Shown here: piece after piece, positions 6,693 to 53,973 of the stretch | Numbering within the stretch: the first letter of the stretch is position 1 | Layout of the letters: each line of letters begins with the position of its first letter | From: the human T2T-CHM13v2.0 reference genome, Homo sapiens | Length of the DNA stretch: 64,000 nt | NCBI GenBank assembly: GCA_009914755.4 | Contig: CP068257.2 | Coordinates: 25,248,001 to 25,312,000, forward strand | Direction: 5' to 3' | Notes under the pieces: generated by a model | The model's input: the letters and a program-made list of their open reading frames with translations, nothing else | Told to the model about the DNA's origin: nothing | Database searches by the model: none | Position numbers and translations under genes: made by a program

Positions 6693-8855
<2,163 letters not shown>

Positions 8856-18420: not shown

Positions 18421-18468
18421 TGAGTGTGTGTGTGCGTATGTGTGTGTGTATGTGTGTAATAGAATAGT
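18421..18468. repeat. (TG)n microsatellite.
   Basis: It reads gagtgtgtgtgtgcgtatgtgtgtgtatgtgtgtaat. Confidence 0.9.
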
Positions 18469-19394
18469 AGCAGCAGAATTGGGCCATCTGCTTGACAAAT
18501 TAGACCTTTTAACTGCATAGAGCTTTGTTAGGAAAGATGATTGAAAGACAACCTGGCTGAAGAATTATATGGCAAAGACCCAGAGACATGAGCATTTAGA
18601 GGAAATCTGGCCTTTGTGTCAGAATCATCAGTGTGTTTGATCAGGTATAGCAGTTGCACATGTGGCTAGAAAAGTTGGTTGGAATTTAGATAAGTACCTG
18701 TCATCTGCTAGATTCCAGAGGAAGGCATGCACTATGGGGTCAAACACTGAGCTGCAAATATTCTTTAAAGTGTGGAATCCTCACAAGTGAGAATCCACTG
18801 TATTTCTAAATACAATAGTGTTTTGGAATTTTGTTGCTTTGACCTAGTAATGTTAGCTGAGAAGATTTAGTTAAACATCCAGGAAAACACGCTGCCTCCA
18901 AAGTTTAGCTTTGAACTGAGAAAAGGAATTATTCACTGCTTCATCTATATCATATGCACAGTGAATCAAAACCAATATAATTTGTTTTTAGTGACTACCT
19001 TTCATTTTGGTGGCTTGAGTACTTTAACATACTAGTCTCTGTGTATATCAGGCTTTGAATTGAGTCAAGATTGACAATTATGATTGAGAATCATTTCCAT
19101 GAGAGAAAAGCAAGCACATCAAAGTGCAATCATTTTTCAAATCGTACACTTGATTCTGGAGATGTAGTGTCTTTGGCCTTGACTTGAAAGCTGTGGTGTT
19201 GAGTCCTTTAGGAGGTGGAAGGTAATGGGTTTAGACAGCAGAAATAAACAAGAACTTCAGGAATCCTGGTTTGACATGATGGAATCCAGTGGCAAGTACA
19301 CTGTATATATCTAAAAATGAATAACAACCTCATGAAAATGTAAGTAGAACTTCATAGTGCTTTCTACCCTGATCTTACCTGATCTTAGCCATAG

Positions 19395-19530
19395 TGCTTG
19401 TAGCCTTCTCTTTCTTTCTCTCCTTCCCCCTTCTCTTCCACTCTTCCTCTTCCTCCCTCCCTTCTCCTCTTCCTCTTCTTATTCTTCCTCCTCCTCCTCC
19501 TTTCTCTCTATTTGTCTCTCATTTCTTGAC
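19395..19530. repeat. Polypyrimidine (CT-rich) low-complexity tract of about 135 bp.
   Basis: It reads ttctctttctttctctccttcccccttctcttccactcttcctcttcctccctcccttctcctcttcctcttcttattcttcctcctcctcctcctttctctctatttgtctctc. Confidence 0.9.
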
Positions 19531-22500
19531 CTCTAAGATATTGTTTATTGTGGTTCCTTTTTGGTATTGACCAAATTTCTGGCTATTGTGTTACTGGTGA
19601 CTTCTTTTCTAAATTAGGAAATTGTGTTTGGAAAAACAGAAAGAAAAATACTCCCCTTGCTCCCCAAATTTTTGTTTCTTTCGTCAATTAGAATAACATT
19701 AGGGCCAAGTTTAATGGCCCTAATGTTAAATAGCCAAGTTTAAGAATGTATATTTTGGCATAAATCTTCATGTACAAGCTTTTAAATAACTCTTACTCTC
19801 AAGCAAAAGTTTAAGAATTTTTAAACAAAAAGATTATTAAACAAAAAACCAATATCTATGCTAAGAAATGCACATTGGAAACTGAATTAGGATTGTCTGT
19901 TGTAGTATCATGTTTTTGTACTTCCTAGAATTCCCTAAAAACTAGAACATGGTCATTTACAGAGTTTATTATTTAAAAATACACGCTATTTGCACCTAAA
20001 ATAAGATATTATTTAAAAATGCCATTGAGGAAACAAAACTTTCATTCTTCTCAACTCTTTTCATTTGGCTATATGGAAAACATTCCATTTAACTCATTCA
20101 GAAAATGTGCAAAACTGGCTTTACGTACAACACTAATTTTCTAAAATGCATGGGCCAGGGCCGTTTTCCATAGATTTCTTGCAATCAGTTGCATATGGCT
20201 GGAAGTAGAACTAACGGTGATTTACAGTAATTGCCTGTCATCAGTCTATGCCATGTTCACCTGCATAATCCATCAATTGTCCCAACAGTGCCCACAGCTC
20301 ATAACCTACCTGAGGTTATTTGGGTCTCAGGAAACACACAGCACGTGCCAATGTTCCAAGAATGAAGCTCTGGTTCCCAGCTTCTGCTGCTCCAACTTCT
20401 ATAGCAGCAAGGAGAAAAGAGTAACAGACATACTGATCACATCTAATTAGAAGGTAAGAAGTATTCCCTTGAGCATGTTTATGACATAGGCACAATAGGA
20501 CAGGAGTAGTCTATTCAAGCGGGTTCCTCAATCTCAGGACTACTGACATTCTGGAGAGAAACATTCTTTGTGTCGGGGGATGGGGGCTGTTCTGTGCATT
20601 TCAAAAGCTTCTTTGGATTCTTTCCACTAGATGTCAATAGCATCCCTCCCACCACTGTGGCAATCCACAACATCTCCAAACATCACAAATATCCCACGGG
20701 GAGAAAATTTTTCCGGATTTAGAACCACTGTACTAAGGGAAAATTAAAACTAGAAATTTGTAACTGGTCAGCATTATATACTGAATGTATGAAGTATAAG
20801 TAGTCTACATAGTGAAAAAATAATAGGACAAATATTCGTAAAACTAACTTAAAGTGATGTGTATAAACACAAAGCATACATTGACCTTTTGGAAAACTTT
20901 TCATGGGTGAAAGGGAGTGGTAAAAATAAACCTCTACCGTTATGACCCTTCTGAAGCAACTGTGTTTGGAAGAAAAAATGAAATGTGAGAATGGTAGAAA
21001 CTTTTTTCTACACTGGTTCTTACTTTGACCAACTCATTGGTTTTCATTGTACCCTTCGGCTTATGTAAAATAATTATAACTTTTCTTTTCCATGATAGCC
21101 TTTCAACTATTTGAAAGCACATGCTGTTTTGTTCTGAAGTCCATTTTCCAAACTTTATTTTGTTATACAAAATAGGACATAGTTTTAGATCCTCCATCTT
21201 TCTAACCTTTCTCTAAGCAGAGCTTCAATCTGTTTATATTATTATTAAGATTCCCAAGGTTGAGAATCCTAATTCCCATGAGAAACTGAATCAGTTAGAA
21301 ATGCTTTTGTCTCCAAAATTCAGAATATCCTGCAGTGATTTAATCCTTTAACAAAAAAAGTTCTTACATAACAAAAATTCCAGGGATGGTTAATTGTTGA
21401 TATTTGTTCAACTGCTCAAAGACCTAGTCTCTAGCTGAGCAGATGTTATTATGGAGCAAAAAAAGCAGGTGGAATGGAAGTTAGCAGTGTCAGAATCTGC
21501 AACATACCTTATCAATGCAGACTAGGAAGAGCATCACCATTTATAACTGTATTAATGCACTTTAAGAGCTTGTTGCTTCTCTGGGTATTGTATTACATGA
21601 CTGATACTGTATCTACCTGTATCATAGAAGCAATTCCACTGCAATGTAATTTCCTATATATGCACCCCGTTGGCTTTTGCTTGTTGAATATTGAAACCGA
21701 GTCTTATTTGTGATCACATCCCTGTATTATTCTGGGTCATATTACATATGTGCTCAAGAATTGTTTAAAGGATCAATGAATACTAAATATGTTCTAATTT
21801 TAGGAGCAAAATTTTCACTTGTGAGAAATTACTTCTTAGAAAATTTCCATTTGCAGCACATTTGTTTTTGTTTATGTTACATTGGATTTTCTTATTTAGC
21901 TTCTGGAGGTATATAAATTATCTCAAAGTTGTACATAATATTTTGTGTGCATGCTCATTTATTAAGTAAACTACAGCTTTAATAAGTTTCTTAAAGAAGC
22001 ATTTGGTTCCCTGCATCAGATGTTAAGTTCCTATACAATACAGATTTTTTGGAAGAGGATAAATGAAAGATCAAAGTTAAAGGACTTCGAGAGAACATTT
22101 ATTTTCAAGAAAATGTGACAGCCAGCTGGGGCCTATTTTAGAGAGATTTCTGTGTCCTCCTATGACCCCAAAGTAAAAAAAAAAAAAAAATCTACAACGA
22201 CAATTCCGGATTTTATGTCTAATTCTGTCACTGAGCTCACATAATGGGGACCAGTCAATGCAAAAATTTTGGAAATGGCTTAGGAGTCTGATTCTAATGG
22301 ATTGGAAAAATAACAATAATGTGCTCCAGAAACACTCAATCAATATTAAAATAGTTTCATTCTTTCAGTATGAGGAGGGTGCAACATACAATCTGTCCTT
22401 TCTGTAGTTTCCTGACCCATTTTTAGCGGTAGGTGCCTTTTAAAGTCTGTGTTGATGAATTTATATAATTGATCCATAATCTCTGATCAGCCCCATAGGA

Positions 22501-24179
22501 GCAATGGCAGAGGAACACGCAGGACTTAGGAGTGAGCTGTATCACTTGAATGGAGCTGGAACTTAATTGTAGCTTCATTAAATAGATCCAAACTAAGGCT
22601 AGCTACATTTTCTAAGTATCACATTTCCCAAGTCTTCATTTTCCTCATTAGAGGGGTTTCAGTTGCTCACAAAAGACCCAGCAGATGCCTGAACAATTCA
22701 TTATACTCTTGTACACATCTGGCTTAATCAATTTTGTAAAATGAAGATGTCTTGTCCAACTTTACATGTAGAACAGATAAAAACTTTCTTTCCTACTGGA
22801 AAATATATTTGGGGCCTGCTTACATCCTGATTCACAGAATGGTCCCCTTACTTCCTGTCTACCTTATATCTGAATACCTCTGGTTCACAGAGTAACAACA
22901 CCTTTCAGAAATGTTGAAATTTTTTTTTCAGGGTAAGGCATTTAGATTGGGAGACAAACAAACAAACAAGCAAAAGAATCAATTCATCCTCCCCACCCTC
23001 ACCAAGGAAGCTTCCCCAGTCAGAGCACTAAGTTAATTACAATACTGCGACTTCTTATCTGCAGTTTGCTTATCTTATACTTGATCGCTTTTCAGCCTTT
23101 TGGCTAAGAGCAAGTGTAGTATTTTATACTTGAATGGATACAAAGGGTAGTAATCTCCTCCTCACTGATAACTATTATGCCTTTGTAATTCTAAATATTG
23201 TTTCTGAAATAAGAGCCTCATTTTTTCTGCATGTAGGAAAGACATGTTAACAATGAAAAATTTACTTTAAAAGGTTGGTAACCAAAGTATAAAGTGGCAT
23301 ATTTTATAATTTTTCCATTTCTCGAAGAATCAAGGTAGTATCTTTGAGTGTTGTTGATTCACGCGTTGTGAAATTTTTAATTAGTTGTGTTACAAAGGAA
23401 TATTCTGGCACTTCCAAGGCTTGAGCATAAAACATCTTAGAGATTCTACTTGGTTTTCTGCAAAAACCTATTCTTAGAACCCTTAGCCACTTTGTAAGAA
23501 GAGTGAATACCCTGTTGAAGAGGCCACACAGAAAGGCCTTGCGAATACCTGGAGAGGGAGGGGAACCCAGCTGAGACTGATTATCTAGCTGTCCCATCCA
23601 AGACATGAGGCATGTGATTAAACCTGTCTTGGACCTTCCAGTTAAGTCCAGTTGGTGTGTGGAGCAGAAGTATCACCCAGCTGAGAGCCCTGACTCACAA
23701 AATCATAATATTCAATAAAGTGTTGCTTTAAACCACTCCATTTTGGGAAATTAAGTAATAACAGCAATATATAACCAAAACACGTTTGTCAAATCTTTGA
23801 CCCATTTGATTAAAACCGTTACACATGTATTGATTGCCAACAAAGAATTTTTAGCTGCATTTGGAAAACATTTTTCCAGGCAATAAATCTCCATATCCAT
23901 CAATTTCCTGCCCCTGTTTTCTGCCTTGTGTTTGCTTGTTTTTATCACTGTGACTACAGATTGCTACTCTACATCACATTTTTAACCAATCCTGTCCTGG
24001 AGTCAGTGTGTATATATGCAGCCCTTGTTAACAGCTCAAGTGACTTGATAGCAAAATTAGATTAGCGATGGTCTTGTTCCAAGATTTTGTGCCTGATCTG
24101 GTAACTCTGAGTTTGAGTTTTTCTTGTTTCCACCTTGTCCTGTAACCGTGATAGTGACAGGAGGCTACCAAATGCCTAG

Positions 24180-24650
24180 GCTGATGGGGCAGGTCCCATC
24201 CAAAGACAGTTTAAAGCCTGAAAGCCAAGCTACAATTTAAATTTTCACACCGGATTAAGAACTTGTCTTCCTGCTTGGCATGCTTTCCTCTGACTGATCA
24301 CCACCCTTAGCCTATTTTACATATACCTACCCTTTCCTAATTGTTTTTCTACACTGTCGTGCCCACCTTTGAGTGGTGTTTTTGCTTCAAACTTTTTTGC
24401 ATACTCACAAACCAATCAGCATGCACTCCCCATTTTGAGTCCATAAAAGCTCCAGGCTCAGCCATATTGGGGGACTTTCCTGCTTTTAGGTAGGGGAAGC
24501 ACCCCCCGCCCTTCTTTCTCTTTGCTGAGAGCTTTCCTTTCATTTAATACATTCTACTCCACTCACTCTCTGGTGTGCCTAATTCTTCCTGGTCATGAGA
24601 CAAGAACCTGTACCTAGCTGAGCTAAGGAGCAGAAAAAAATCCTGCATCA
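24180..24650 (+). mobile_element. Probable ERV-derived solo LTR with a U3-R-U5-like layout.
   Basis: ccaatcagcatgcactccccattttgagtccataaaagctccaggctcagccatattgggggactttcctgcttttaggtagggg...ctttgctgagagctttcctttcatttaatacattctactccactcactctctggtgtgcctaattcttcctggtcatgagacaagaacctgtacctagctgagctaaggag resembles class I HERV LTRs, with a TATA-like box and a poly(A)-signal-like region. I did not identify the family. Confidence 0.4.
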
Positions 24651-27600
24651 ACCCCAATAACTGGATTGTAATCTTGTTCATTCTGCTTATAGGCCTAACA
24701 TGGTAGCCTTTCTAATAATCCACTCTAGATTGAGATTATTCCTTGTTTTCGTGTGTACATTCATTTTCTATTACTACCATAACAAATGCCAATCATTCAG
24801 CATCTTTACCAAACCTATTTATAATATCACAGTTCATAGATATCTAAGCTCAGCAGAGCTCAGCTGGGCCTCTGCTCTGGGTTTACAAGGCTGGAACCAA
24901 GGTATCAGCAGTGCTGCATTCCTTTCTAGAAGATCTAAGGATGAATCCGATTCCAACAAACTCCTTCATGTTTTAGCTAGAATTCATTTGTTTTGAAGTT
25001 GTAGAACTGAGGTTCTCATTTCCCTGCTGGCTGTCCCATTGGCCAGGTGTCATTCTCAGCTTTCTAGACACTGCCTGAATCCTTTTGATCCCTTTCTTCA
25101 TCTTCCTAGCCAGCAGTGGAGCATGGACTCCTTCTCATGCTTGGAGTTCCTCTAACTTCCCCTTCTGCCTTTCTCTTCTGCTTTTAAGAGTTCATGTGAT
25201 TAAACTGGGCTCTCAAATTAATCCAGACTAATCTTCCTATTTTAAGGTTTGTTGGTTATAAACATTAATTCCATATCCACAGTATTTTCACAGCAGTACC
25301 TCAATTTGTGTTTGATTGAATGACCAAGAGACAGGAACTATGGGGGCACATCTTTAGAATCCTGTCTTCCACTTTGGTGTCATACCAGGAACTGAAGATC
25401 TGTCTTTGAATCAAGTAACCAGGTTCTTGCTACTACCCATCTACCATGGCTCCTCTACTTCTTGGGCCTAAACTTGGCTTGATTTTTTTCTAAAATTTTT
25501 TTTTTAAACAGCATTACTTGTTAAAAATATTTATATACCCACATTTTGCCATTTTGCAGAGACATCATCAACTATTTCCTGAACCCTTTAATAATTATTA
25601 TTTGACTGGGTTGCCATCAATTTATTGATTCAGTCATTTATTCAACAAGTACTTATTGAATGCCAGGTACCTTCTTAGGAGCTGGTAATACAGCAATGAT
25701 ACAAAATAAAGAGTATGGTCTCAAAGTATGTACATTTCTACATCTGGTTATATGATAGGGATAACAGACTTATACAAACGAGGATATGGTGAAATTTCAG
25801 GAATTTACAAGTGACATGAACAAAAATGAAGGAGAAATGTGTCTATTTAATTTAGGGTGGTCAGGAATGGACTCTCTGAGGGATAACATTTAAGTACAGA
25901 CTTGAAGGAAGCCAGGAAGCCAGTGTATATCTGGAGAAGAGCGTTTTAGGCAAAAGATTCTGGAAAAGGTTTAAACTTGATGCCGTAAAGAGTAGCAGAG
26001 AGGCAAAGTAGCTGGGGAGTGAACCAAGGGGTAAGAAAAGGAGGGAAAATCAGACAGGTCGGTGGTATCAGATCCTGTGGGGCCTTGAAGCCTGTGGAAA
26101 GAAGATTGTTTCCTACTTTCAGTGAGTTAGTAAGGTGTTGGAGAATATTTGGCAGAGGATTTAAATGATCTCACTTAAAGCTTTTCATTATTAGTCTAGC
26201 TGCTGAAGGCAGCAAGAAGTCCCATAAAGAGGCATTTGCTGTTGTTCAGGATAGAAAAGATTAAAGGATTCTACTCAAGTGGTAGCAGTGTAGGAGCTAT
26301 GAACTGGCTGGTCTTAACATAATCTTAAAAAAAGAGACATCTATTGCTTGTTCTCATATACTAATATTCTGTCTGACACTCTTATAGCTGGTCATAGTCA
26401 GGCACTTCCTTTGAGTGTTCAAAGCAACATCTTTGAACAGAGGGATGGTAAAGGAGCTTGACAGTAAAGAAACAATCTAGGTGGAATCTTTACAATGTCT
26501 AGTAGGTAGCAGACATATTTGGAAGATGAAGAGGTTAATGCTTCTCAAAGTTTTGTAGATAAAATACTCTTTTTAAAATCTAAAACTGGCTCAGCCACTA
26601 TTTTTGGAAGCAGTCTACTTATAAGTGATTAAGAAATATTTTCCCATGCTTTCCAAGATTTAGATGCTTCTTATAGTAAATAACAACAATAAAAAGCCCA
26701 TAATTCCAATTGAAAGCAAATCCCAAAGGAGGCTTAGTAGGGAGACAAAGCATTGGAGGTAGCTAGAAGTAGAAGGAGAAATCTATATTACAGAAAATCT
26801 TATGAATGTACATTGGAGTGAGGTCTTGGGCTAGGTACTGCCCCAGATGGTTAATCATTCTGGCATCGTGTCTCCTTATGTGACAGACATGGATAGGAAC
26901 TAGAAAAAGCAGGGCTATTCTACTATACTCCCTCACCTGTATCTACATAATGACATATAATCATTTATTTTGTGGGAATTTAATTTAACAGAATTTAATT
27001 GAACAGATAAAACACTCAATAATATATCAGAAAAGACCCAACAGAATCTGAGAAATAGAGATGATTTGGACTTCACAAACATCTAGAGTTCCATTTCTAA
27101 GCATCCCCTTTGTTCATTCTACTCCTAATCCAAAAGCTATCCCCATTACCACTTTTATGCCTTTGACCTTGTCTGACCCAACTCATTTCCAGCTGTGAAG
27201 GAGTTTGTAAGGTAAAATACCAAACTCTTTTTTGAAAAACTCTTACCAGCAATTTCTTAGTTTTCTACATCAAATTATCTCTCCTCTTTCCTTAAACAAC
27301 AATCTTCTGTGCTACCTTCAGCTCCTGGCTCTATCCTTACTGCTTGCCTAATTCTTCATAGTTTCCTTAACATTTTCATTGGAATTTTAGGAATGTTCTT
27401 GCTTTTACTCAGGGGGCCTACACATTAGGCGTAAACACTTCCCTCCATTTCTCTAATCTCCCAGTCAATCCTTCAACCACCCTGCAATCTCTCGCTCAGA
27501 TTCACTTTTGCACCAACCTAATAGCTAATAATTAATGGCTATCATATTGTGACTGTTATCTGTAACATGGAATCTTAATACCAGTATCACAAGAGCCAAA

Positions 27601-30600
27601 GGGCATGGAGAGAAATTTGTGGTAGAAAGTTTGTGGGGTGATTACCACAGGGCCTAACTCAATGAGATGTTGAACAAATCTTAGCTATATTTTGATAGCT
27701 AGTGTGTATGTATATATTATACCATCTTTTTAAAAATATAGATGTTTTAAATCATTTCTTTAAAAGCATACATCCTCCTAAGGAGAAAATTTAAAGTACC
27801 GCCATTCTACAATACTGTTTGATAGGGAAATTCAGCATTTGAAATGTACGCTAAAAAGTAATGATTCCAGGTTTAAAAAGAATTAATGCTCCTAGGAAGC
27901 TTAATGTTATAAATGTTATAAAATAGACTTTTGCTAGTCAATTTCAGGTTGTTTTTTTTTTTTAAATTTCTATGCTTGCATTATTATCTCAACTCTTTAA
28001 CTTTGTATCTGGACTAAGTTTAGACATAAAAATTAAAAATGAAGCAGTAGATTATGTTGCTTGCTGTTTCTAATTTAACACCAGAATTTTAATAGTATGC
28101 AATCTTCAAGGGTTGGTAGTCTGGTAAAAACTTGAAGCAATAGTTTCATAGAACTTTAACTAAGATAAAGTATTAATTGTCTATGCCAAAGAGGGTGAGC
28201 AATGATAGAGATTATAAAGAGCCTAGGGCTTCCCTGAGACCCAGCTTGGTGCTACCACTGTTAAGAGAAAATTAAAAATAAATGAACAATAGTTTCCAAC
28301 TCTAAAACATATTATATGCAGTACATACTTTAACCTAGTTTACAATTTATATTTATTATGCCCACTGAACCCACAAAAGCAGTGTTTAATTTTACAGTTT
28401 AAAGTCACACATAGGGAAATGCTTTACAAAATAGGATATTGTTCCTCAATGAAAATATTACAGTATAGGTCCCAAACGGCTCAGTTCAAGTCTTTTACCT
28501 GAATAACAGAGCTGTTGTGGAATGCAGGCTACAAGACACAGTAATGCTTTAAATAGTTGATTAAGATTTGAAGGTTGCCAAAGCTGAGAGACATTTTAAA
28601 CAAGACCCGTCTTAGTTTTCCAAGATTTTTGGTTTTTCAACTGCATTATATACCATTGCTTCTGGAAAATTGAGGGTAATAAGCAGCGTACATTTTACAT
28701 CTTATATACAGTATGTAAATCTTCAATGATTTTCTCTACCATCAAAGCAAGTTTCAAGGTTTAAAAATCTGTTATACGTACTTAGGTTTATTACTTGACT
28801 TTACTCACAGACTCTAATATAGAAACCAAATATTTATGCAATTGCTTCTATCAAATGCAACATATTTCTTCAGTCTATTTAGTTATCTGCAAAGTCTATT
28901 TACAAAGCATATGTATGATTTCCTCTGACTAATAGGTCATACAAATACGTAAGTAGTGTTTTTCAACTCGTAATTGTAGCAAGATGAGCCATCAAGGTTT
29001 ACGTTGTGCCTGAGTGTATAATGCAAAAATACCATCCAGAGATTATATATTTCTTAATCAAAAGTCTAGCTTTACAAAGTCACATACAGTGTGTTCTTCT
29101 ATTGTAAATATACTCTCAGTATAGGTAGACGTGTTTCTAATATATTGTGAGTTGTTAAAGAAAAGGCTGAGATATAGTCACCAAGTGTTTACCAATAACA
29201 TAAATTATTGCAAAGCTTGAAAAAAAATCAGGCCAAATATACACGACAGTTTGAATGGAATGCTGAGGACTTAGTGAATGCTGAAATATGACTCATCTAA
29301 AAGTCTGCTACTCCGGCCTGATGCTCCTCAAATTTTAATGACCCCTTAAATGTCCTCAGATGCACATGCAGTTTACGTCACTGACCACTGTTGGTCAAAA
29401 CAATCATTGGATGTGCTTATTTTTCAAATTTTGAGTATCAAGTTGTGCCCTACCGTGACACAAAGCTTAGAGGTCTTTCTTGCAAACTGTAAAATCATGT
29501 AGAAAAATAGTAACTCAAAAATACCACATTTGACAGTCGGTCACGAAAGATGTTAGCACCTCAATAAAAATTAGAATTGTTCATTGGGTGTGCCAAAGGA
29601 AAGTGGAAAAAAATTAAAAAGCATGCCCTGTTTTTTATTTGTTTTTTTTTTTTTTCCTACAAATCACAGTTTTCCTCACAGTGTTAGACTTTTAGGTCAC
29701 TCTGATGTAGCAGTACCTTACAGGATGAGGGGCCACTGCTCGTTTTTTCCATTTGACCTTTACAGTCCACATGGTCCAGTTAGTTGAAGCCACAAAATAA
29801 AGACCAGAGACAGCAAAATTATTGCTAATGTGCAACTATATTAGTAGAATGCAATTAACTGGGCTAACTAATGTGTATGTTAATGTCTTTTTTTTTTTCA
29901 AAACCAACATCATCTAACAACATATTCTTTTAGTTTTTCCATAAAACCTGCATTGAGAATGATATCATAGCCCCAGGCAGGCATTTACCAGACTGAATGT
30001 TTTGCTGATCTGAACACTACCTGTATTCCAATTTTTTGGCTAATGCATGGTTTTGTATTTCAATATGTTCTCATACATTAAATAAATGAAACACAATTAT
30101 ACATTATAGAGTTTATATGCATCATGATGATATAATTTGAGAAATTATCTCTATAGATTATGCTAACAAAGGATTCTTAGGAAGATTTTTCAATGTACTA
30201 GCCAGTTAAGTTGATCTATCTGTTTGATAACCTAAAACTATAGATTGTTGGCAAATGAGAAAAATAATAGGGAAAACATACAAGTTCCTTTTCTGTGTGT
30301 CTAAATGATACATTGTCTTGAATTTGGTTCTATTAAAGCTTTAAATGACCATTTCTGTACACATGGCTATTTCATTTATTTAGTAGTTTTGAAATGTTAG
30401 CAAATATAAGGTATTTGTAAAGCATCTTTCATTATAAAGAGATTAGTAATATTCACCAATCATGCCAATGAGATTATACACTCTGCCAAAGACTACTAGA
30501 AAAATTTGATCATTATTAAATTCAATGTTATTTGACAGTGTGAACTCTATGTAACAGCACAAATTCTGGACTTTGAATCTGGCTGCTGTCCTCACCTGAA

Positions 30601-33600
30601 CCATTAAAATGACCTTGTTAACAAGGAAGGAATCAATGGGGAAATATCACAACCAGAGATTGGCTGTGTGTCCAAGGGTGCTTTGTCTTGTTGCCAGGAT
30701 CAGACTGTGAAATCACAGAGGCAAGCTGATGTCATCAGAGGTGACTCTGCCTATTTCAAGTCCTATAATCACCCCATGGGATTCAACAGCAGTAGGAAAA
30801 CATCACATTCTCTTAATGGACACCCCATATTTGTAGAAACAGTTATGACTATTAGCATTTGTTATACAAACCCAATCTATTTGTGCTCATCTGTAGAATC
30901 CTACAGACACTAGAGACTAAATGATATTAATTTTAGGAGGTGTTTCTAAAGGAGAAACAGACAACATTTGGTTTTATTATCGTTTGTATCCCTCAGAAGT
31001 TGTGTGTAGACAACTTTCATCTAATACATCAATATCGACTTGTCCAAGTTTCTCGATGAAGTGAAAGGATCTGATTATTGGCTGTGTCTTAGCGTCTGTA
31101 GGAAGCTTCTAGGCTATTTGTGTACCCAAATTTAAAACTTGCACCTTGTTTCATTGAATAAGTGTTTTTCTTATTTGTGACTTGGAAAAATTAGTGTTAA
31201 TGTGATGTAAAAGACCTATTATCATAGGCACAAGTAATGAACACTATTGGTCATGACAGATTAAAATTTCCTTGGAAAGAAAAATGATAGTATCAGAATA
31301 AGAATACATGAGGAATATATACATATACACCTGCTTCACACAGAAAGCTTTCTGTAAAAAAATACAAAAGCAACCAGTGCTGTATATTATGTAAACTCAC
31401 AAAGTGTAAAAGTGTACTTTATACACAAACATGAAGCATAAATTAAAAAGTAGGACAACAGCAAAACATTTTAAATATAGAAAAATTTGAACATATTTTT
31501 GTTAAATAAGAATAAATAATTTTATCACACAAATTCACATACCAGTTGCAAAAACAATAAATTACTTTTTTTCAGTGCTGCAACTTTTTTTTTGTTTGTG
31601 ATTTATCCCCTAATTCCTAGTTTAGTGGGATAAAACTGTTTCCACAGGAAGGCAAAGGAACATAAATTTATTGAATAAATTATAACAATGCCCACATATT
31701 TCTAAACAGCAAGGCAGGGCTTAATTTAAATTTTTCTGATCTAGAAGAAATAAATGTCATTTTTTCTGGCTCCCTTTGTACTTAATAAAACTTATTATGG
31801 AGTGCTTAGTTATGTAAGTGAGATTAGATTCTTACAAACCTGAGCATTTTCAGACGAATTCTTTTTTTTTTTTTTTTTTTAAAGAAGTAGCCCCTAGCAT
31901 CCTGAATTCTAGACATTTTAAAAAATTCAAGATGCAACAATGGAAAGGTGAAAGACAGTACGAAGTCAAAGTGGACTGACTTAGATTGAGTTGTATAGAA
32001 TTTTCCCTTTGTTCACAATTCGTGGTATCTATTGAACACTCCATTTCTCTGAATTTCAGTTTCCAATCCATATCATCTTCTCCAGGAATTTAGACATACA
32101 TTCCTCAGTCAATCTAGTGAGACTCATAAGAAAAAGGTGGAGAAAACTACTTAAAAGCATGGAATAGTGGTTTAATTGCTCTGAGCTCTCTAGGATTGTT
32201 TCCATGACAGGTGTAAACCATCACTATTTGAGGGAAACATGAATCATTGATAAACCATATTAAAAATGTATGAGTATAGTAAGAGAAGCAGAGTAGGAGA
32301 CAACTACATTTATGCCTCGAGTATTTTTTAATGTTGTTGGGAATATAACCACAAAAAATAAAAATAAATTTTGTCACATTTGAGTTACTTGATTAAAATT
32401 ATTTCCAAAATGGAAAAAAGTAACATTAACCTCTCTCCTAATTCTCTTTGCACAGACAAATGGCACTGGGATTATTATTTTTTTTCTCACCTATTTAACT
32501 AGGTTTGCTTTCTGCCCTTGGCATTGGGTGATCTCCATCACATATAGGTTATCAGCCTTGTACAGGCCTCATTTCTCAAAGTGATAATTTATTAAGAAAA
32601 AAAATTTCTACGTCGAAAGCAAAGTCAGTCTATGAAAATTCAAAGGATAATTATTGGTTTTGTAAAACAATTATTTGTTTTAAAAGCAATTTCTTAAGAA
32701 AATACTGAAAACAGCAAGACATCTATTTTCCTGGCCCACTGAAATGATGTAATATAGTGATCAGTTACATAATTCTTTTATATTAAAAACATCTTATAAT
32801 AAAAATAAACTCTCATGAGCTTGTAGAACTCAAACAGTGGTTCCCTAAGATCTTCACATGCAAATCTTTAACAATAGGCACATTTGGCAGGATTACTATG
32901 AATTTTTATAAAGAAAAATTGGCTTTGCAGTGTTTCACAACAAAAGAAATCCCAATGAAATCAAACAACTTAGATTTTCTAAGTTGTGAGGTTGGTGATG
33001 GGGGGGTGTACATTTTATCATCTAAAAAGATATCTTTAGGTGTGTGCTTATAAAATAATTTCCATGTCTAACTATTCAAACTTACAACCTACTTAAACAG
33101 GCTATGGAAACAAAAACAACAACTTTCTGAAAATCATCACATGTCATCACTCAAACACTTACGGGTACAATCAAGTGCTTTCCAGTTGGGAAAAATATTT
33201 AGTACAATAGGAATATACTTAGATTTTTTAAATTAAGAAATTATTGCCTATGGTGTGGAAACAGTCTTATTAATATTAACCACTTTTTGGCATTAACCAC
33301 ATTAACAATGATAACCACTTCTCAATGTGGCTAACTACCAAGTGATCTTTAATGTTTCTAATAAAATAAGTCAAGAAATACAAAACATTGTAGGTCTTAC
33401 TGAACCCTTGAACAAAACAAATAAGCAAACACAAACGCATTTTAAAGGCTTGCTGGTAGGAGGTATACCAGTGTTGAATGTGTTGGACATGATAGAAAAC
33501 TTGCTGTGTGTTTTGTACGTATATCATACATTGTGAGATATCAGATGAAAGCTCTGGAGAGAGAAAGTAGTTGTGAAAATATAAATTGAAAACACAGTGA

Positions 33601-34472
33601 AATACGATTTTTTTCCTTTTAAATTTCCAACACAAGGAAACTAGTTTTTAGACTCTTGAGTATGATCACACACACACACGCAAACCCTACTTCTACATCT
33701 GAAATTATGCATTAATTTGGCTAGCTACCTGAAAAAAATACAGGCAGTCAAAGGTTTTAAGTAAATGAACCCGTGTATGTATTTAAGTGACTAGATACAC
33801 TGAGATCTATTTACTTTTCAAAATTTCTCAGAAGATACTTGCTGTCAAAATGGTTTTTTGACTGAAATTTTATCTCCTGTAGTCAGAAAATATACTACAT
33901 CTTATTAAAACAGCAGCAAGTTCTTAATTTCCAGTAAAATATCCACAGCTCTTTCTGGAAACGGAAGGAAGTTGAAATAGCTGCAGACCTACTTTGGTCA
34001 AACACTTTTTTTATAGAAATATATATGGATATTTTAATAGAACCAGGGGATATAAAGTGACATACCAAGGGAGAATGTATTTACAAACAGTAAGAAGAAG
34101 CTACTGTGTATTATGGGTGAAAATGATTATGATACCATTAAAGACATTCTATCAGAGGTAGGTGACAAGGGGGAGACAGTTCTGCCATCTTCAAATGTCC
34201 CCTGATTTTACATTCATCAGTGTTTCTTGTAATCCCAGGGGATGTTCAATAACTCCCAAGTTTTTCTATATTGCAAGGTCACCACTGTCACGTGAAGCAG
34301 TGCACATCCTCTTTTGGTCACAGAGAGCAGATTCTGCCCATAATTGGACTCCTGTTGACAATGTCACTGAAGCATGACTTTCTGTGCGTTAGGTAGACCT
34401 CCTGTTCACCACGACTGCATCGGTGCTGAATCCTCCAGTTATCTTTGTGCATAAGATCATAACCACAGGCTA

Positions 34473-35037
34473 ACATTTCTTCAACAAGCATTGCTTAAAC
34501 GCAGAAGGCCTTTGGGAGAGAGGACATCCTTTTGCTAACTTCCGGTTTCCATCCTGGCACTGCACCGTTCTGGTGTGCCAACCTGTGTCACAGGTCCTAG
34601 AGCAGGCGAGCCATGGGCCCGTGACCCACTGCGGCTGCGAAGTGTGTGATCCCACTTTATTGCTGCCATGACTAGTGACAGAGTTTACTTTTGGAGTGGA
34701 CTTCTTGGGAACAAAAAAGCTATAACGGACATCTAATGGTTTAGTGGGGTCTGTTGCAAGAATCTGCACTATTAGAATTTCCTTCGTGGCAGAGTAGCCC
34801 ATGCCATGCAGGAAGTCATCCCTGTGGCTCCAACCGCTATAGTTCATGACTGTTCCATTGATGTCAATGATAGTCTCTGAAGTGGAGATCATGTACTTTC
34901 CATTGATAAGGTACTCACCGTTTTTCTTTTTCAGGGCTAAATAGGCAGTGAATCTAGTCTGGTCTTTGGCTTTGAACTGTCGAACTTTTATGTGGGTTGC
35001 CCCTTCAGGAATCCTCACCACGTCAGTGTAACCCTTA
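34473..35037 (-). CDS. ADAMTS exon (565 nt) for the spacer domain plus a complete second TSP1 repeat: (S)KGYTDVVRIPEGATHIKVRQFKAKDQTRFTAYLALKKKNGEYLINGKYMISTSETIIDINGTVMNYSGWSHRDDFLHGMGYSATKEILIVQILATDPTKPLDVRYSFFVPKKSTPKVNSVTSHGSNKVGSHTSQPQWVTGPWLACSRTCDTGWHTRTVQCQDGNRKLAKGCPLSQRPSAFKQCLLKKC. An in-frame TAG follows at 34472-34470.
   Basis: The acceptor is cttcctgtgaacattcctacttccag|T, with AG at 35039-35038. The first nucleotide completes AG+T, which is Ser, from the previous exon. The sequence is collinear with the ADAMTS1 spacer GYHDIITIPTGATNIEVKQ...YSGS...KYTYFV, followed by a W..W..CS.TC..G TSR. The 5' boundary is secure. The 3' boundary is uncertain: it is either the stop at 34472-34470 or a weak donor AAAT|GTTAGC at 34474. 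Confidence 0.75.
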
Positions 35038-36467
35038 CTGGAAGTAGGAATGTTCACAGGAAGTGGGGGAAGGTGGTTAAAAAAAGGGAGAAAAAAATGA
35101 GTAAACACTTAACAAATAAATACACAAACAGAAGTTCTCTAAAAAGTCTTCTCTTAACACACAGTTTTAATGGATTAGTTTAAAATTGGGTTTAAAAATT
35201 ATTTTTTATGAGAAAATTGCAATTATACTACAGTATTGTATACACTTTAATTGAGGTGTTCAAAATTAGGATGATGCTAGCAACCTGCCTTCATTTAAAA
35301 CATTTATACTAACTTTCAAGATTTATACAACCATTTTCATCCTTATCAGATCCTATCATCTTTACAAATCTACTTTCCATTCTTTCTGGCACAAAATGGG
35401 ATCTGTTTAAACACAAACTGACAAAAATATGCCTTCACTTAATCTCACATAATTCTTTAATATTTCTCAGATTGCTTCCACATTAGAATCACGTGGGGAT
35501 CTTTTAAATCTTTCAGAGCCTACCCACACCTCAGACCAATTAAATCCCCATCTTCCAGGGTCGGGCACAGTCAAGAGCACTTTTGAAACTTCTCACATTG
35601 TTCCAATGTGCAGACTAACTTGGGAACACAGAATTAATTAGTTTTTGGACTAGAGGTGAGTAGAGTCTCTGCATTCCTTTCTACTAGAATTCTGGATTTG
35701 GTGGGACAGGCCATAAATGAAGCATGCAATTCTGAAATTGGGTAATGATATTACTAATACCATCATAAAAGGGGAATTTTTTTAAATGACTTAGAGAATT
35801 TTTCTGAATTCTTAGTGCCCATAAGATACGATAGATTGAGAAAGGCTTTATGGTGAGTGACATATAAGTCTTCAAAGAGCCATCATCTGGACAAAAAAAT
35901 GGGGAAAGACACAAATATCTTTAATACCCATAAACCTGTGAGGAATGCTAGGATGGAAATGCTAATTAAGCACCAAGGGTGAAATGACGAGTCAACTTTT
36001 GTCCACATTTTTGCCTTTTTAAGTAATTTCATAATAGGGTCCCTTCACTTTCCTAGTTATTTAAACAGGAATACTATTGGCTTGAGCAGTTTGACTGACG
36101 TGTGGAGCTGAACTGTCTCATTTCCAGTTCTCATTCACATGCTAAAGATCCAAGTGTGTTTCCCTTACTCCAGAGTTTCCTCTGAATTGGAAAGGAAGCT
36201 TATCGCCAAGGAAGTCCCCTGTCTGCAGGGCAATCTGTTCTACAGTGACAGCCACACAGGTGGTAAAGCTTCCTACAGTGTTGAAGAGAGATGATGCAAT
36301 GCTCAGGGCGTTCCTTATTCTGTCTAACTCGATTCATTATTTTTATTTTTGTAATACATTACAGATCAGATTTTGTTACAGATGTGTTTTGTAGTACCTA
36401 ATATTAATAAATAATCCATGAAACTATAGTGGCTTCAAAGAAAGTCAAAAGGGATGTTGGAGAATTC

Positions 36468-37103: not shown

Positions 37104-38997
37104 GCCAGGCTCTTGACTCCCAATTAGCGCTCTTTTTCACTATGTCCCCAGGCATAAAATCCTGACCCCTGCCAGCCATATGTTATAGCAGTTAAATGAA
37201 ATTAAATTCTGGTTATGTGCAGAGTTTAAATGATGCCCAGTAAGGAGTAAGTAAAATAAAGAATAAAGGGTAAGGGAAGCTTTTTTGGGTGTTTACCCTT
37301 GTTCCTTAGAGCTTATCTCATCTTGATGAGAATTAGTATGATGGTCAGTATTGCTGCAGGTCTTCAAACTGAGTTTCACAAGCACTAGTAAACCTGAGTA
37401 TTAGTGCCCTGATTTTTTAGTGCCTTAGTAAGAGATGATTCTCTTGATATTCCTGATTCCTTTTCTTTACATCCTGCTTGGTATCATTTAAACTCCAGAC
37501 ACTAACCAGCTTTCCCGACTACCATAAGTGAATGCAATTTTCATACAACTCTTACAAAGTATGGCTGGCAGGGCAAAGGAATCTTGTTTTGTTCAGGGCT
37601 ATCTGCACAGTGCCAAGGACAATGTCTGTCATGAAAAAATATATTCATTTATATTCAAGCATGCTCTCAGGGAAGGGATGTTTTAGTCCGCTCCCAGCAA
37701 ACAAAATATGTGGTGATATCAATTGATAAGAGCTGTGAAGAAACGGAGTAAGGTAAGAAGTTGCACAGTAGTGGTGGGAGTGGAGGAGATGTCCTCTTGT
37801 ACATTTACGGTAGCCTCCATCTGGGGAGGTGATATTTGACAGAGACCTAAAGAGATTCTGGAAAGTGTACTGCTCATTAATAGCAGAAAGTGTTCCAGGC
37901 AGAGGAAACAGCATTCTCATACCTGGTGTCATGTTTTTGAAGTGCAAGAAAGTGCATTCTGGTCAGAGCAGAGCATGAGAAAGGGACAGTGTAGAAAAGA
38001 CATAGAGGAGGGAAGGGGCCAGATCTTTTAGCACCTTAGAGATTACAAAACAGTCTTGGGTATTGAGTCTAAGTAAGATGGAAGCCACTGGAGGCTACTG
38101 ATCAAAGGAATGCAATGATCTGGTTTAGGTAATAGCCATGGCTTCCCTTGCTTGGTAAGATGAGATTGAGGAGCAAAGGATCCAGAGGTCAGCGAGAAGA
38201 CTGCAGTGTTAGTCCAGGCAAGATCTGATGAACACTTGGATTGCGGTGGGAGCGGTCACGGTGGTGAGGGGCACCCAGATTCTGGAGATGTGGTGGAAAT
38301 AGAACTGACAGGATCTGCTGATGGATGGATGTGGGGTGTGAGAGAAAATGAGACGTGAACCATGCCTCCAAAGTTTTGGCCTCAATAGTAGAAAGACTGA
38401 GTTGCCATTTACTGAGATGAGGAAAACTGAGGGAGGAGCGAGTTAAGATTAGGGTCATATTGTGAATGGGCTTAAAATTGATGAAATATTTTAATATGTA
38501 TTACCTCATTTCACCTTCACAACAGTTTTATTAACCATATGATAATAATTACCAGTATTTCCACTTTACTTTTGAGAAATCTCCTGGTAAAGAAATTAGG
38601 TGACAATTCAAAGATCACATGTCTAAGGAATCATTGAGCCAAAGCTTGATTACAAATATTGCAGTATGAGATCAATGTTCTTTTTCATAAATCATATAAA
38701 TTACTATGGCCTCCCTAGGTAATTAATTTGAACTACTCAAACATGTCATTTGTACCATAGTAGAATCTTGGTCAAACCAATTTTCAGGTGGTTACATTGC
38801 ATACCACTTGTTGCTATAATGAATTTCTTCTTTTTCATGTGAAAAAATGTGCAGATATTAGTTGTCAGCACAAAAATACTTAAAATGCTAAATTTAGCAA
38901 TTTTAAAACTGGTTTATAACTTTATATAGAAGAGAATATGTACCATAAAGTGTATAAGGTATTACTTTTTAAAAGTAGTTTTGTTTCTAATTTGATT

Positions 38998-39167
38998 CCT
39001 GAATTCCCTCTCTCCCTCCTTTCCTTTTTCTTTCCTTCCTTCCTCTTTCTTTCTTTCTCTTTCCTTTGTCTTTCTTTCTCTTTCTTTCTTTCTTTTTCTT
39101 TCTTTCTCTCTCTCTCTTTCTTTCTTTCTCTCTTTCTTCTATCTCTCTTTCTTCTTTTTTTTTTCAA
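38998..39167. repeat. Long (CTTT)n/(CT)n polypyrimidine microsatellite of about 170 bp.
   Basis: It reads ccctctctccctcctttcctttttctttccttccttcctctttctttctttctctttcctttgtctttctttctctttctttctttctttttctttctttctctctctctctttctttctttctctctttcttc...tttttttttt. The Lys/Arg/Glu-rich ORFs at 38922..39167 and 38938..39186 are translation artefacts of this tract. Confidence 0.95.
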
Positions 39168-40298
39168 AGTGACCTGTGTATTCTAGGATTTCAGTTATGG
39201 TGTCTGCTCTTCTCTGGCATTCATCAGCCATGGATAATTGGCTAACTCCTATATTTTCAGAGTCCAACTCATTTTTAAAACAGAAGGTTGGACTGATCAT
39301 CTCCAAGGTGTTTTATACCTTTGAAACATATAAAAATGCAGGATATAATTGGGCATGCAGGGTTTTTGACATAGATGGTCTAACACAATTAGGTGAATAA
39401 TTATTTCATTAGCAAATAGAATTAGTAACGCATATTTTAACTCAGAATAAATTTTTCAGCCATATATTTTCAAATCACATCAGAGAAAATTTATAGTTTT
39501 TTACATTAACATGTTTAATTATTTTAATAAATCCTATTGTTAATTTCGTTTGCATATTACTCTCAAGTTACAGACAACACAGCACGTACATCAAGAATAC
39601 AGATACATTTGACTAATAACACTCAGCCTAAGAGTGGTTTGGGAAGAAAAGCAAGCCTGTATTTTACCAGACTCTAGTCAACTCAGTCATCCTACCTGAT
39701 AGCATATTTTATGCCGGAAATTGGTACTTCATAAACTTGAATATTTAAAGCAAAAATCTAGGACCATAAGAGGAAGCAGGAGAGAGACACTGCTGTATAT
39801 ATTTCTTTAGAGAGTAGATATAAACCAGGATACTTCACTGTTGCCCACACCATTGCAATGAACTTACATTTTGCAAGGGGAAATATTTTCTTAAGGAAAA
39901 CACAGTGTAAGGATAATTTGTTTTTAAAAATATAGTTAAGATCAAAACCAACCAACCTTCCCTAAATTATGTTTTAGGAATAACACTAGATCTGCAAGAT
40001 ATCACTAAAGTGGAATGTCCCCCACTTTTTCTTTTCAGTTTTCTGACTCTACAAGCTATTGATTCCCATGGCTACTGCAGTTTATCTGCTTCCAGAGGCG
40101 GCATGAGTTTTCCCTGAGCAACCAGAGTTTTATTCATCTCCTGTCTCTTCCTTCTCATATTTAAAATGTGTTTCTAGAGCCACGTTAGACCTCCTCATAC
40201 AGATAGCTTATGATGTAATATGAATCCTCCTTTATCAATTTTGCAAGAGTCTAAAGCTTTGTTCAATTCACATAAAGACAAAGGTTCTATCATATTAC

Positions 40299-40474
40299 CT
40301 TTTCTTATTAAAGGTTCCAACAATCTTTGTACAGCTGGAGTTGTCTCCTCCACATACTCCGCACTTGTCATACTGCAGCTTTGAGCCAATGATGCCGTCA
40401 CAGCCAGTTCTCACACACTTCCCCCGGACGCAGACGGAATTACTGTACGGCCTACATTCAGTGCCATCGGTCAC
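40299..40474 (-). CDS. ADAMTS exon (176 nt) for the second part of the cysteine-rich domain: [58 protein letters not shown](S).
   Basis: The acceptor is atgattcag|GTG, with AG at 40476-40475. The donor is AAA AG|GTAATA, with GT at 40298-40297. It carries the hallmark ADAMTS motif [13 protein letters not shown], and ADAMTS1 has [14 protein letters not shown] at the same place. Confidence 0.9.
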
Positions 40475-42417: not shown

Positions 42418-42593
42418 CTTTGGAGAAAATACCACATAGTAGCCAGTGCCCTTGGCTCTGCAGGTCAGCTTGCACACATCCGCTGGCAGGACACCTGCAT
42501 ATTTGGGAACCCATTCCACAAAAGTTTTGACTCCTTTTGCATCAGACTGATAGCCATTTTTGGCCTCACACTGTTCATGACGAAATGATTTAC
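42418..42593 (-). CDS. ADAMTS exon (176 nt) for the first part of the cysteine-rich domain: (G)KSFRHEQCEAKNGYQSDAKGVKTFVEWVPKYAGVLPADVCKLTCRAKGTGYYVVFSPK.
   Basis: The acceptor is tttctag|GT, with AG at 42595-42594. The donor is AAG|GTAACT, with GT at 42417-42416. The sequence is collinear with ADAMTS1 GKTFREEQCEAHNEF...[35 protein letters not shown]. The 147-aa plus-strand ORF at 42145..42588 is the antisense shadow of this exon. Confidence 0.9.
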
Positions 42594-43280: not shown

Positions 43281-43464
43281 CATTGGGTGGGCAGGGCATG
43301 AGACTGCAGGAGCGGTAGATGGCCCTCTTCCCTGTGCAGTAGCGTCCGTTGTTTCTGGGAGCAGGGTTATTACAGTGACGATAGGCAAACTGCACTCCTC
43401 CTCCACATGAGCGAGAACACTGGCCCCAGGATCCCCAAGATCCCCAGTTGCCATGGCTTGACGT
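43281..43464 (-). CDS. ADAMTS exon (184 nt) for the central thrombospondin type-1 repeat: [61 protein letters not shown](G).
   Basis: The acceptor is tttcag|ACG, with AG at 43466-43465. The donor is AAT G|GTACGC, with GT at 43280-43279. The WxxWxxWxxCSRxCGGG motif is present. The entry phase is 0 and the exit phase is 1, consistent with the neighbouring exons. Confidence 0.9.
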
Positions 43465-44885: not shown

Positions 44886-45169
44886 TGAATAATATTTTTT
44901 CTTGGTTTTGTCCACACATTTGCCCTGCAGGCAGATTCTCCCCTTTCCACAAGGCGTCCCTTCCACCGCAGGCAGCTTCTTGGTCAGACAGACCATCTGG
45001 CCCTGGCGTACCACAGCACACCACAGGCGAGCACAGACATCCATGCCGGGACACACGGAGTACTCAGGCCCGAATGTCAGGTTGCACTGCTGGGTGGCAT
45101 CGTAGGTCTGTCCTGGGAGTTCTTCGGGGCCCAGGATCTGCTTTCGTGGTAGGTCCAGCAAACAGTTAC
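44886..45169 (-). CDS. ADAMTS exon (284 nt) for the start of the disintegrin-like domain: (G)NCLLDLPRKQILGPEELPGQTYDATQQCNLTFGPEYSVCPGMDVCARLWCAVVRQGQMVCLTKKLPAVEGTPCGKGRICLQGKCVDKTKKKYYS.
   Basis: The acceptor is tcagttattcttgtag|GT, with AG at 45171-45170. The first two nucleotides complete the Gly codon begun by the last G of the previous exon, giving DDGHG-NCLLD. The donor is TCA|GTAAGT, with GT at 44885-44884, and is a perfect consensus. The sequence is collinear with ADAMTS1 [40 protein letters not shown]...CINGKCVNKTDRKHFD. Confidence 0.9.
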
Positions 45170-53805: not shown

Positions 53806-53973
53806 CATGGCCATCATCCAGGAATTCTGTGATGGTGGCTGAAGTGCATTTGGACCAGGGCTTAGATGCATCAATGCTGGTAAGGATGGAAGACATTAAG
53901 CGCTTATCTTCTGTGGAACCAAAGGTCTCTTCACAGAATTTGGAATCGTCATGGGAGAGGCCAAGTAAATGTC
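53806..53973 (-). CDS. Coding exon (168 nt) of an ADAMTS-family zinc metalloprotease. It covers the C-terminal part of the catalytic domain: (HELG)HLLGLSHDDSKFCEETFGSTEDKRLMSSILTSIDASKPWSKCTSATITEFLDDGHG. This completes the metzincin motif HExxHxxGxxHD and includes the Met-turn region (RLMSS).
   Basis: Stop-free minus-strand frame. The acceptor is ctgttgtctcccttag|GA, with AG at 53975-53974, and the exon enters in phase 1, so an upstream exon must end ...CAT GAR YTN G to give HELG. The donor is GGC CAT G|GTATGT, with GT at 53805-53804. The translation aligns with ADAMTS1 HVFNMPHDDAKQC...[20 protein letters not shown]. Confidence 0.85.

What the first reader, a model, noticed from the sequence alone, without database searches (positions are those of the whole stretch)
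34440..34480. In-frame TAG directly after the last Cys of the second TSP1 repeat
The spacer/TSR2 exon reads ...GCPLSQRPSAFKQCLLKKC and is then followed immediately by TAG at 34472-34470. A full-length ADAMTS protein would continue with a Pro and further TSRs. There are two explanations. The first is that the exon ends at a weak, non-consensus donor AAAT|GTTAGC at 34474, which would split the Cys codon as T|GY. The second is that this is the terminal coding exon of a truncated isoform that reads into the intron. I see no AATAAA in the 300 nt downstream on the minus strand. I also recognise no further exons in the 34 kb downstream, so the next exon is either far away or absent.
Basis: partly seen in the sequence, partly recalled or inferred. 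Interest (0 to 1): 0.5.

Follow-up and report, generated by a model that had tools for sequence, protein, structure and literature searches.

The report
Normal stop codon of ADAMTS5
The TAG right after the last cysteine of the second thrombospondin repeat is the ordinary stop codon of the aggrecanase gene ADAMTS5, whose full-length protein ends there, so nothing is truncated or mis-spliced.

Summary
On the minus strand the open frame ends ...FKQCLLKKC and is followed by TAG at 34472-34470. The interpretation starts from a wrong premise. The gene is ADAMTS5: six spliced exons in the window match the solved human ADAMTS-5 chains 2rjq and 9rwm, residue for residue in the two alignments printed. 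Published reviews state that ADAMTS5 ends with a single C-terminal thrombospondin repeat after the spacer.

A stop directly after this Cys is present in every vertebrate orthologue recovered. The codon itself varies: TAG in mammals, TAA in two 82-84%-identical tetrapods, TGA in sturgeon and teleosts. After the stop, indels break the reading frame.

The proposed GT donor scores below all five real donors in the window. It is also lost in four loci from three lineages where the Cys codon is TGC. No further TSR is encoded anywhere in the 64 kb.

The downstream DNA behaves as one long 3'UTR. It has collinear conserved blocks and ends at a conserved AATAAA (28357-28352), about 6.1 kb after the stop.

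Verdict: this is the known terminal coding exon (exon 8) of ADAMTS5.

One side observation may be worth a look. An 8-mer, CCTGTGGT, abuts the stop, is conserved from sturgeon to human, and is complementary to both miR-140-3p seeds.

The parts
34473..35037 (-). Coding part of the terminal exon (exon 8) of ADAMTS5: the spacer C-terminal part plus the single C-terminal TSR. It is preceded by an AG acceptor at 35039-35038.
   Evidence: Translation. Pfam ADAMTS_spacer1 and TSP1_ADAMTS; the TSP1_ADAMTS match covers profile positions 1-55 of 55 and ends at the last residue. Matches PDB 9rwm (ADAMTS5): 134 of 136 aligned residues identical, the two differences at the ends of the alignment; a second match spans the exon 7/8 junction.
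34470..34472 (-). TAG, the canonical stop codon of ADAMTS5.
   Evidence: A stop sits at the same codon in 14 orthologous loci while its identity varies between TAG, TAA and TGA. Of 61 homologous ORF products that contain the final motif, 53 end exactly here.
34473..34474 (-). It is not a splice site.
   Evidence: Approximate PWM score -0.37, against 1.6 to 4.6 for the five real donors. About 15% of all GTs on this strand score as well or better. The GT is replaced by GC (Cys codon TGC) in L007/L008, L010 and L013.
28330..34469 (-). Inferred 3'UTR of about 6.1 kb; the 3' end is approximate.
   Evidence: Collinear conserved non-coding blocks. L002 (another mammal) is 81% identical over the first 441 nt. 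L011 matches UTR positions 1-610, 949-1061, 2785-3157 and 5920-6168. Sturgeon and one teleost match near UTR position 2.9-3.1 kb. The reading frame is not kept after the stop. Pfam and Rfam found nothing. No Alu landmark between 34470 and 15527.
28352..28357 (-). AATAAA, the candidate poly(A) signal of the mRNA.
   Evidence: It lies in the last conserved block (window 28553-28305). TAATAAATA is identical in human and L011, and conservation fades about 50 nt downstream. Two UGUA motifs lie upstream. Its use as the poly(A) site is inferred; no transcript data were available.
34462..34469 (-). CCTGTGGT, a conserved 8-mer directly after the stop codon.
   Evidence: Identical in human, the primate L001, the mammals L003-L005, L007/L008, L011/L012 and sturgeon L006. 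In sturgeon it is shifted by 2 nt relative to the stop. L002 reads CCTGTGAT, one mismatch. The four teleost loci lack it. It is complementary to the miR-140-3p.1 and miR-140-3p.2 seeds given in PMC7566571.
31316..31688 (-). Deeply conserved block inside the 3'UTR.
   Evidence: 69% identical to L011 over 373 nt. Two sub-blocks (31580-31505 and 31426-31335) align to sturgeon at a similar distance from its stop. The first sub-block also aligns to teleost L009.
40299..40474 (-). ADAMTS5 exon 7 (Cys-rich domain, second part).
   Evidence: AG/GT boundaries and a continuous frame in the spliced model. PDB 9rwm spans the exon 7/8 junction.
42418..42593 (-). ADAMTS5 exon 6 (Cys-rich domain, first part).
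43281..43464 (-). ADAMTS5 exon 5 (central TSR).
   Evidence: PDB 2rjq covers it.
44886..45169 (-). ADAMTS5 exon 4 (disintegrin-like domain).
   Evidence: 151 of 152 aligned residues identical to PDB 2rjq; the single difference is the query's first residue, which is intron-encoded. Also.
53806..53973 (-). ADAMTS5 exon 3 (second half of the metalloprotease active site, GHLLGLSHDD...).
   Evidence: Exon 2, which carries the other half of the active site (PMC2364661), is not in the window.

Best explanation
The TAG at 34472-34470 on the minus strand is the canonical translation stop of ADAMTS5 (aggrecanase-2). The window holds exons 3-8 of the gene. Exon 8 encodes the end of the spacer and the single C-terminal thrombospondin type-1 repeat. 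The mature protein ends on the last cysteine of that repeat. The same exon then continues unspliced as a 3'UTR of about 6.1 kb, down to a conserved AATAAA at 28357-28352. Shown here: gene identity, exon structure, the domain ending at the last residue, conservation of the stop position, loss of frame after it, and conserved non-coding blocks that end at the AATAAA. Inferred: that cleavage and polyadenylation occur at about 28335.
For: (1) Identity. The spliced exons match PDB 2rjq (ADAMTS-5) at E=3e-153 and 9rwm (ADAMTS5 spacer) at E=2e-122, and the matches cross the exon junctions. The two printed alignments are identical except at their terminal positions. All five introns have GT-AG boundaries and the frame is continuous.
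(2) Architecture. Pfam gives Reprolysin, ADAMTS_CR_2, TSP_1, ADAMTS_CR_3, spacer, TSP1_ADAMTS. The last domain covers its full profile (1-55 of 55) and ends at the last residue. Reviews describe ADAMTS5 as ending with one additional TSR after the spacer.
(3) The stop position is conserved while the codon varies: TAG in mammals L001-L005, TAA in L007/8 and L011/12, TGA in sturgeon L006 and teleosts L009, L010, L013, L014. Of 61 homologues with the final motif, 53 end on this Cys. The other 8 continue with W, which for P0013/L009 is a TGA in the DNA.
(4) After the stop, alignments show 2-nt, 22-nt and other indels that are not multiples of three.
(5) Downstream conserved blocks are collinear with L011 and end at a shared TAATAAATA about 6.1 kb (human) and 6.4 kb (L011) after the stop.
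(6) Only two TSRs exist in the whole window.
Against: No transcript, splice-junction or 3'-end data could be consulted, so the poly(A) site and the absence of rare alternative isoforms are inferred. Conserved downstream blocks could in principle be DNA-level enhancers rather than UTR elements. The species of most comparison contigs is unknown.
Confidence: 0.97

Rival explanations
1. The exon ends at a weak donor, AAT|GTTAGC at 34474, which splits the Cys codon. The protein would then continue into further TSR exons downstream.
For: A GT is present at 34474-34473, with A at +4 and G at +5.
Against: The approximate PWM score is -0.37, below all five real donors of the gene (1.6 to 4.6). About 15% of all 3172 GTs on this strand score at least as well. 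The GT is absent where the Cys codon is TGC (L007/8, L010, L013), yet the stop is kept there. No TSR-like ORF exists downstream on either strand. ADAMTS5 is described as having a single C-terminal TSR.
Confidence: 0.01
2. The TAG closes a truncated isoform that reads through a donor into intron sequence. The full-length isoform would be spliced elsewhere.
For: None beyond the lack of a poly(A) signal within 300 nt of the stop.
Against: The product that ends here already has the complete published ADAMTS5 domain set. The stop is at the same codon from teleosts to human. The downstream sequence shows 3'UTR-like conserved blocks that end at a conserved AATAAA. A long UTR explains why there is no signal nearby.
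Confidence: 0.01
3. Programmed readthrough of the TAG adds a 26-residue C-terminal extension (PVVMILCTKITGGFSTDAVVVNRRST).
For: The first 8 nt after the stop are strongly conserved.
Against: The conserved 8-mer is out of frame in sturgeon (TGA AG CCTGTGGT). Indels of 2 nt and 22 nt between mammals destroy the frame within the first 60 nt. From my own knowledge, the context TAG-CCT is not one of the known mammalian readthrough contexts.
Confidence: 0.01

Closest known systems
Human ADAMTS5 (aggrecanase-2), exon 8 with its stop codon and 3'UTR
   Same: Everything tested. The sequence matches the solved human ADAMTS-5 chains, including across exon junctions. The domain order is the same. There is one C-terminal TSR and the protein ends on its last Cys.
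   Different: Nothing was found to differ. The window may come from human or from a very close relative; the contig L001 is 98.6% identical.
ADAMTS1, the neighbouring paralogue
   Same: Same clade and the same MP-Dis-TSR-CysR-spacer core. 2jih and 3q2g match the MP/Dis part at E about 6e-42.
   Different: ADAMTS1 has two C-terminal TSRs after the spacer (PMC10033314). The gene here has one.
ADAMTS4 (aggrecanase-1)
   Same: An aggrecanase with the same core architecture.
   Different: ADAMTS4 ends after the spacer with no C-terminal TSR (PMC4448532). This shows that short ancillary regions are normal in this clade.

Membership tests
ADAMTS5 orthologue | Sequence identity to experimentally characterised human ADAMTS-5 | tested here: met
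   The printed alignments to 2rjq (152 residues) and 9rwm (136 residues) are identical except at their terminal positions. The spliced 518-aa product matches 2rjq at E=3e-153 and 9rwm at E=2e-122, and ADAMTS1, ADAMTS4 and ADAMTS13 far more weakly.
ADAMTS5 orthologue | Ancillary region made of central TSR, Cys-rich domain, spacer and exactly one C-terminal TSR | tested here: met
   Pfam domain order. Only two TSRs in 64 kb. Literature description.
ADAMTS5 orthologue | Signal peptide, prodomain and first half of the catalytic site (exons 1-2) | not testable with these tools
   These lie outside the window, upstream of 64000. tblastn with a recalled catalytic-domain sequence hit only exon 3.
Canonical stop codon and terminal exon | Stop position conserved among orthologues while the stop triplet is free to vary | tested here: met
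   TAG, TAA or TGA at the same codon in L001-L014.
Canonical stop codon and terminal exon | Coding constraint ends at the stop (frame not preserved downstream) | tested here: met
   Indels that are not multiples of three directly downstream (alignment A2).
Canonical stop codon and terminal exon | Poly(A) signal downstream with no intervening intron, confirmed by transcripts | tested here: inconclusive
   A conserved AATAAA at 28357 closes the last conserved block. No transcript or 3'-end data were available.
   The Cys codon is TGC in L007/8, L010 and L013.
   Approximate PWM score -0.37, against 1.6 to 4.6. The PWM frequencies were recalled from memory, and MaxEnt was not available.
   No TSR or other Pfam domain downstream.
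miRNA response element (miR-140-3p), for the 8-mer after the stop | Complementarity to the seed | tested here: met
   CCTGTGG pairs with seed CCACAGG and CTGTGGT with seed ACCACAG.
miRNA response element (miR-140-3p), for the 8-mer after the stop | Position at least about 15 nt from the stop codon, and measured repression | tested here: not met
   The site occupies UTR nt 1-8. From my own knowledge (Grimson et al. 2007), such sites are usually ineffective. Repression cannot be tested with these tools.

The most novel reading that the evidence does not exclude
The 8-mer CCTGTGGT that abuts the ADAMTS5 stop codon is conserved from sturgeon to human but is not held in frame. It may be a functional post-transcriptional element. 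The most specific candidate is a response element for both seed isomiRs of the cartilage microRNA miR-140-3p. Target predictors that skip the first ~15 nt of a UTR would overlook it.
Probability: 0.12. Interest if true: 0.4.

Novelty: already known. Interest (0 to 1): 0.05.

Why it matters
It matters little. The finding rediscovers the annotated end of a well-studied gene. Its use is as a calibration point: a stop right after the last Cys of a TSR is not evidence of truncation in ADAMTS genes, because the number of C-terminal TSRs varies from 0 to 14 across the family. The conserved motif next to the stop and the deeply conserved UTR blocks could interest people who study post-transcriptional control of ADAMTS5 in osteoarthritis.

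Tried and rejected
I replaced it with tblastn of a recalled catalytic-domain sequence.
- Literature searches found nothing usable on ADAMTS5 protein length (930 aa, from my memory), 3'UTR length, alternative polyadenylation or TargetScan positions. The 930-aa figure and the RefSeq transcript length therefore stay unverified recollections and are not used as evidence.
- Rfam at gathering threshold found nothing in the window.
- Pfam on ORFs of the proximal 5 kb of the UTR found nothing.
- MaxEntScan was not available, so I used an approximate PWM with recalled frequencies. It should be read only as a ranking.
- The eight homologues that appear to extend past the Cys (KKCW...) were considered as evidence for a longer C-terminus and rejected. 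For P0013 the DNA (L009) has TGA and the locus does not translate to the query under the standard code. The other seven are inferred to be the same artefact.
- Stop-codon readthrough was considered and rejected on frame grounds.

Full report
**Observation.** Read on the minus strand, the sequence is ...AAG AAA TGT TAG CCT GTG G.... The Cys codon TGT lies at 34475-34473 and TAG at 34472-34470. The mechanical ORF 35108..34470 ends ...GCPLSQRPSAFKQCLLKKC. No AATAAA lies within 300 nt downstream: the first ATTAAA is 431 nt and the first AATAAA 1876 nt after the stop. The description is accurate.

**What the gene is.** Six minus-strand exons in the window, all with AG/GT boundaries, splice into one continuous 518-codon frame that ends at this TAG. 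The exons are 53973-53806, 45169-44886, 43464-43281, 42593-42418, 40474-40299 and 35037-34470. The product matches the solved human ADAMTS-5 catalytic/disintegrin/TSR chain 2rjq at E=3e-153 over residues 1-217. It matches the ADAMTS5 spacer chain 9rwm at E=2e-122 over residues 282-465. Both matches run across exon junctions. ADAMTS1, ADAMTS4 and ADAMTS13 match far more weakly. The residue-by-residue alignments printed are identical except at their terminal positions. Pfam gives the order Reprolysin (C-terminal part), ADAMTS_CR_2, TSP_1, ADAMTS_CR_3, ADAMTS_spacer1, TSP1_ADAMTS. The last model is matched over its whole length (1-55 of 55) and ends at the final residue. A published study places half of the active site in exon 2 (PMC2364661). 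The exon starting GHLLGLSHDD is therefore exon 3 and the terminal one is exon 8. Exons 1-2 lie beyond position 64000.

**Why the TAG is the normal stop.** Reviews and biochemical papers describe ADAMTS5 as signal peptide, prodomain, metalloproteinase, disintegrin-like domain, central TSR, Cys-rich domain, spacer and one additional TSR (PMC8381022). They refer to "the single C-terminal TSR" of ADAMTS5, against two in ADAMTS1 (PMC10033314). Across the family the spacer is followed by 0 (ADAMTS4) to 14 TSRs (PMC4448532).

Comparative data agree. Of 61 homologous ORF products that contain the final CxxKKC motif, 53 end exactly on that Cys. At DNA level, 14 orthologous loci have a stop at the same codon, but the triplet differs:
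- TAG in the primate contig L001 and the mammalian contigs L002-L005;
- TAA in L007/L008 and L011/L012 (82-84% protein identity);
- TGA in sturgeon L006 and in teleost loci L009, L010, L013 and L014.

A conserved position with a freely varying triplet is the signature of a true stop. The eight products that seem to run on (KKCW...) are a gene-caller artefact. For P0013 the DNA shows TGA and the locus "does not translate to the query". The rest are inferred to be alike. Directly after the stop the alignment of human, another mammal, L007 and sturgeon has indels of 2, 22 and other non-triplet lengths. Before the stop, substitutions are of the synonymous third-position type.

**The donor hypothesis.** I used an approximate position-weight matrix whose frequencies were recalled from memory, so it should be read only as a ranking. 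The site scores -0.37. The five real donors of the gene in this window score 1.6 to 4.6, and about 15% of all 3172 GT dinucleotides on the strand do at least as well. The GT is not conserved: the Cys codon is TGC in L007/8, L010 and L013. An HMM built from 60 orthologous TSR2 sequences plus TSR1 finds only the two known TSRs among all six-frame ORFs of 20 aa or more in the 64 kb (E=3e-30 and 1e-19; next best E=0.6). Pfam finds nothing in the ORFs of the first 5.3 kb downstream.

**The truncated-isoform hypothesis.** The sequence after the stop behaves as a long 3'UTR, not as an intron.
- It is 81% identical to another mammal over the 441 nt available.
- In L011, a 50-kb metagenome contig from an unidentified vertebrate, four collinear conserved blocks are found, at human UTR positions 1-610, 949-1061, 2785-3157 and 5920-6168.
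- Part of the third block is also recognisable in sturgeon, at 2979-3286 nt after its stop, and in one teleost, at 2705-2752 nt.
- The last block (window 28553-28305) contains TAATAAATA, identical in both species, with UGUA motifs upstream. Similarity decays about 50 nt further on, and nothing is conserved beyond it in the remaining 1.5 kb of L011.

I infer that AATAAA at 28357-28352 is the poly(A) signal. Exon 8 would then run from 35037 to about 28335, and the 3'UTR would be about 6.1 kb. It remains an inference, because no transcript data could be consulted.

**Things noticed.**
- The 8-mer CCTGTGGT directly after the stop (34469-34462) is identical in human, L001, L003-5, L007/8, L011/12 and sturgeon, although sturgeon has it 2 nt out of register. 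L002 has one mismatch, and the four teleost loci lack it. It contains the complements of both seeds of miR-140-3p (CCACAGG and ACCACAG, as given in PMC7566571). miR-140-3p is the most abundant product in cartilage of a microRNA locus tied to osteoarthritis. Sites this close to a stop codon are generally held to be ineffective (my own knowledge), so this is a lead only.
- The stretch from the stop down to 15527 has no hit for the two Alu landmark sequences I searched. The introns upstream have many.
- A 200-nt polypurine tract on the sense strand lies in intron 7.
- In cod (L010) another ADAMTS gene begins about 7 kb downstream on the same strand. This recalls the published ADAMTS5-ADAMTS1 neighbourhood.

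**Comparison and verdict.** This is ADAMTS5 exon 8 with its ordinary stop codon and long 3'UTR. Every membership feature that could be tested was met, and the features that would define a splice donor were tested and not met. Nothing here is new. Interest is very low, apart from the small chance that the conserved motif beside the stop has a regulatory role.

Noticed in passing
window 34462-34469 (minus strand): CCTGTGGT directly after the stop codon is conserved from sturgeon to human without the frame being kept. It is complementary to both miR-140-3p seed isomiRs. One mammal contig (L002) has a single mismatch, and the four teleost loci examined lack it.
   Followed up: partly
window 31316-31688 (minus strand); L006 15292-15600; L009 about 8400-8720; L011 about 11820-12240: A deeply conserved non-coding block about 2.8-3.2 kb after the stop. 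It lies at a similar distance from the stop in human, L011, sturgeon and one teleost. It includes GCAGCACTGAAA and TGAGTTTACATAATATACAGCACTGGTTGC. Its function is unknown.
   Followed up: partly
window 28305-28553 (minus strand): The last conserved block downstream of the gene. It contains ATTAAA (28390, not conserved) and AATAAA (28357, conserved with L011), with UGUA motifs upstream. It is probably the mRNA 3' end, about 6.1 kb after the stop.
   Followed up: partly
window 15527-34470: About 19 kb downstream of the stop has no hit for the two Alu landmark sequences searched. The introns upstream (36-62 kb) contain many.
   Followed up: no
proteins P0009, P0013, P0028, P0032, P0047, P0049, P0053, P0057; locus L009: Database homologues that seem to extend past the final Cys with W... 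come from gene calls that read TGA as Trp. L009 DNA has TGA at the conserved stop position. They are an annotation artefact, not a longer C-terminus. This was checked for one of the eight.
   Followed up: partly
window 38975-39186: A tract of about 200 nt in ADAMTS5 intron 7 that is polypyrimidine on the plus strand and therefore polypurine on the gene's sense strand.
   Followed up: no
L010 17868-20768: In Gadus macrocephalus, a second ADAMTS gene starts about 7 kb downstream of the ADAMTS5-like stop on the same strand. Its 959-aa product has a prodomain, Reprolysin, TSP_1 and spacer. This recalls the ADAMTS5-ADAMTS1 tandem arrangement described for mammals.
   Followed up: no
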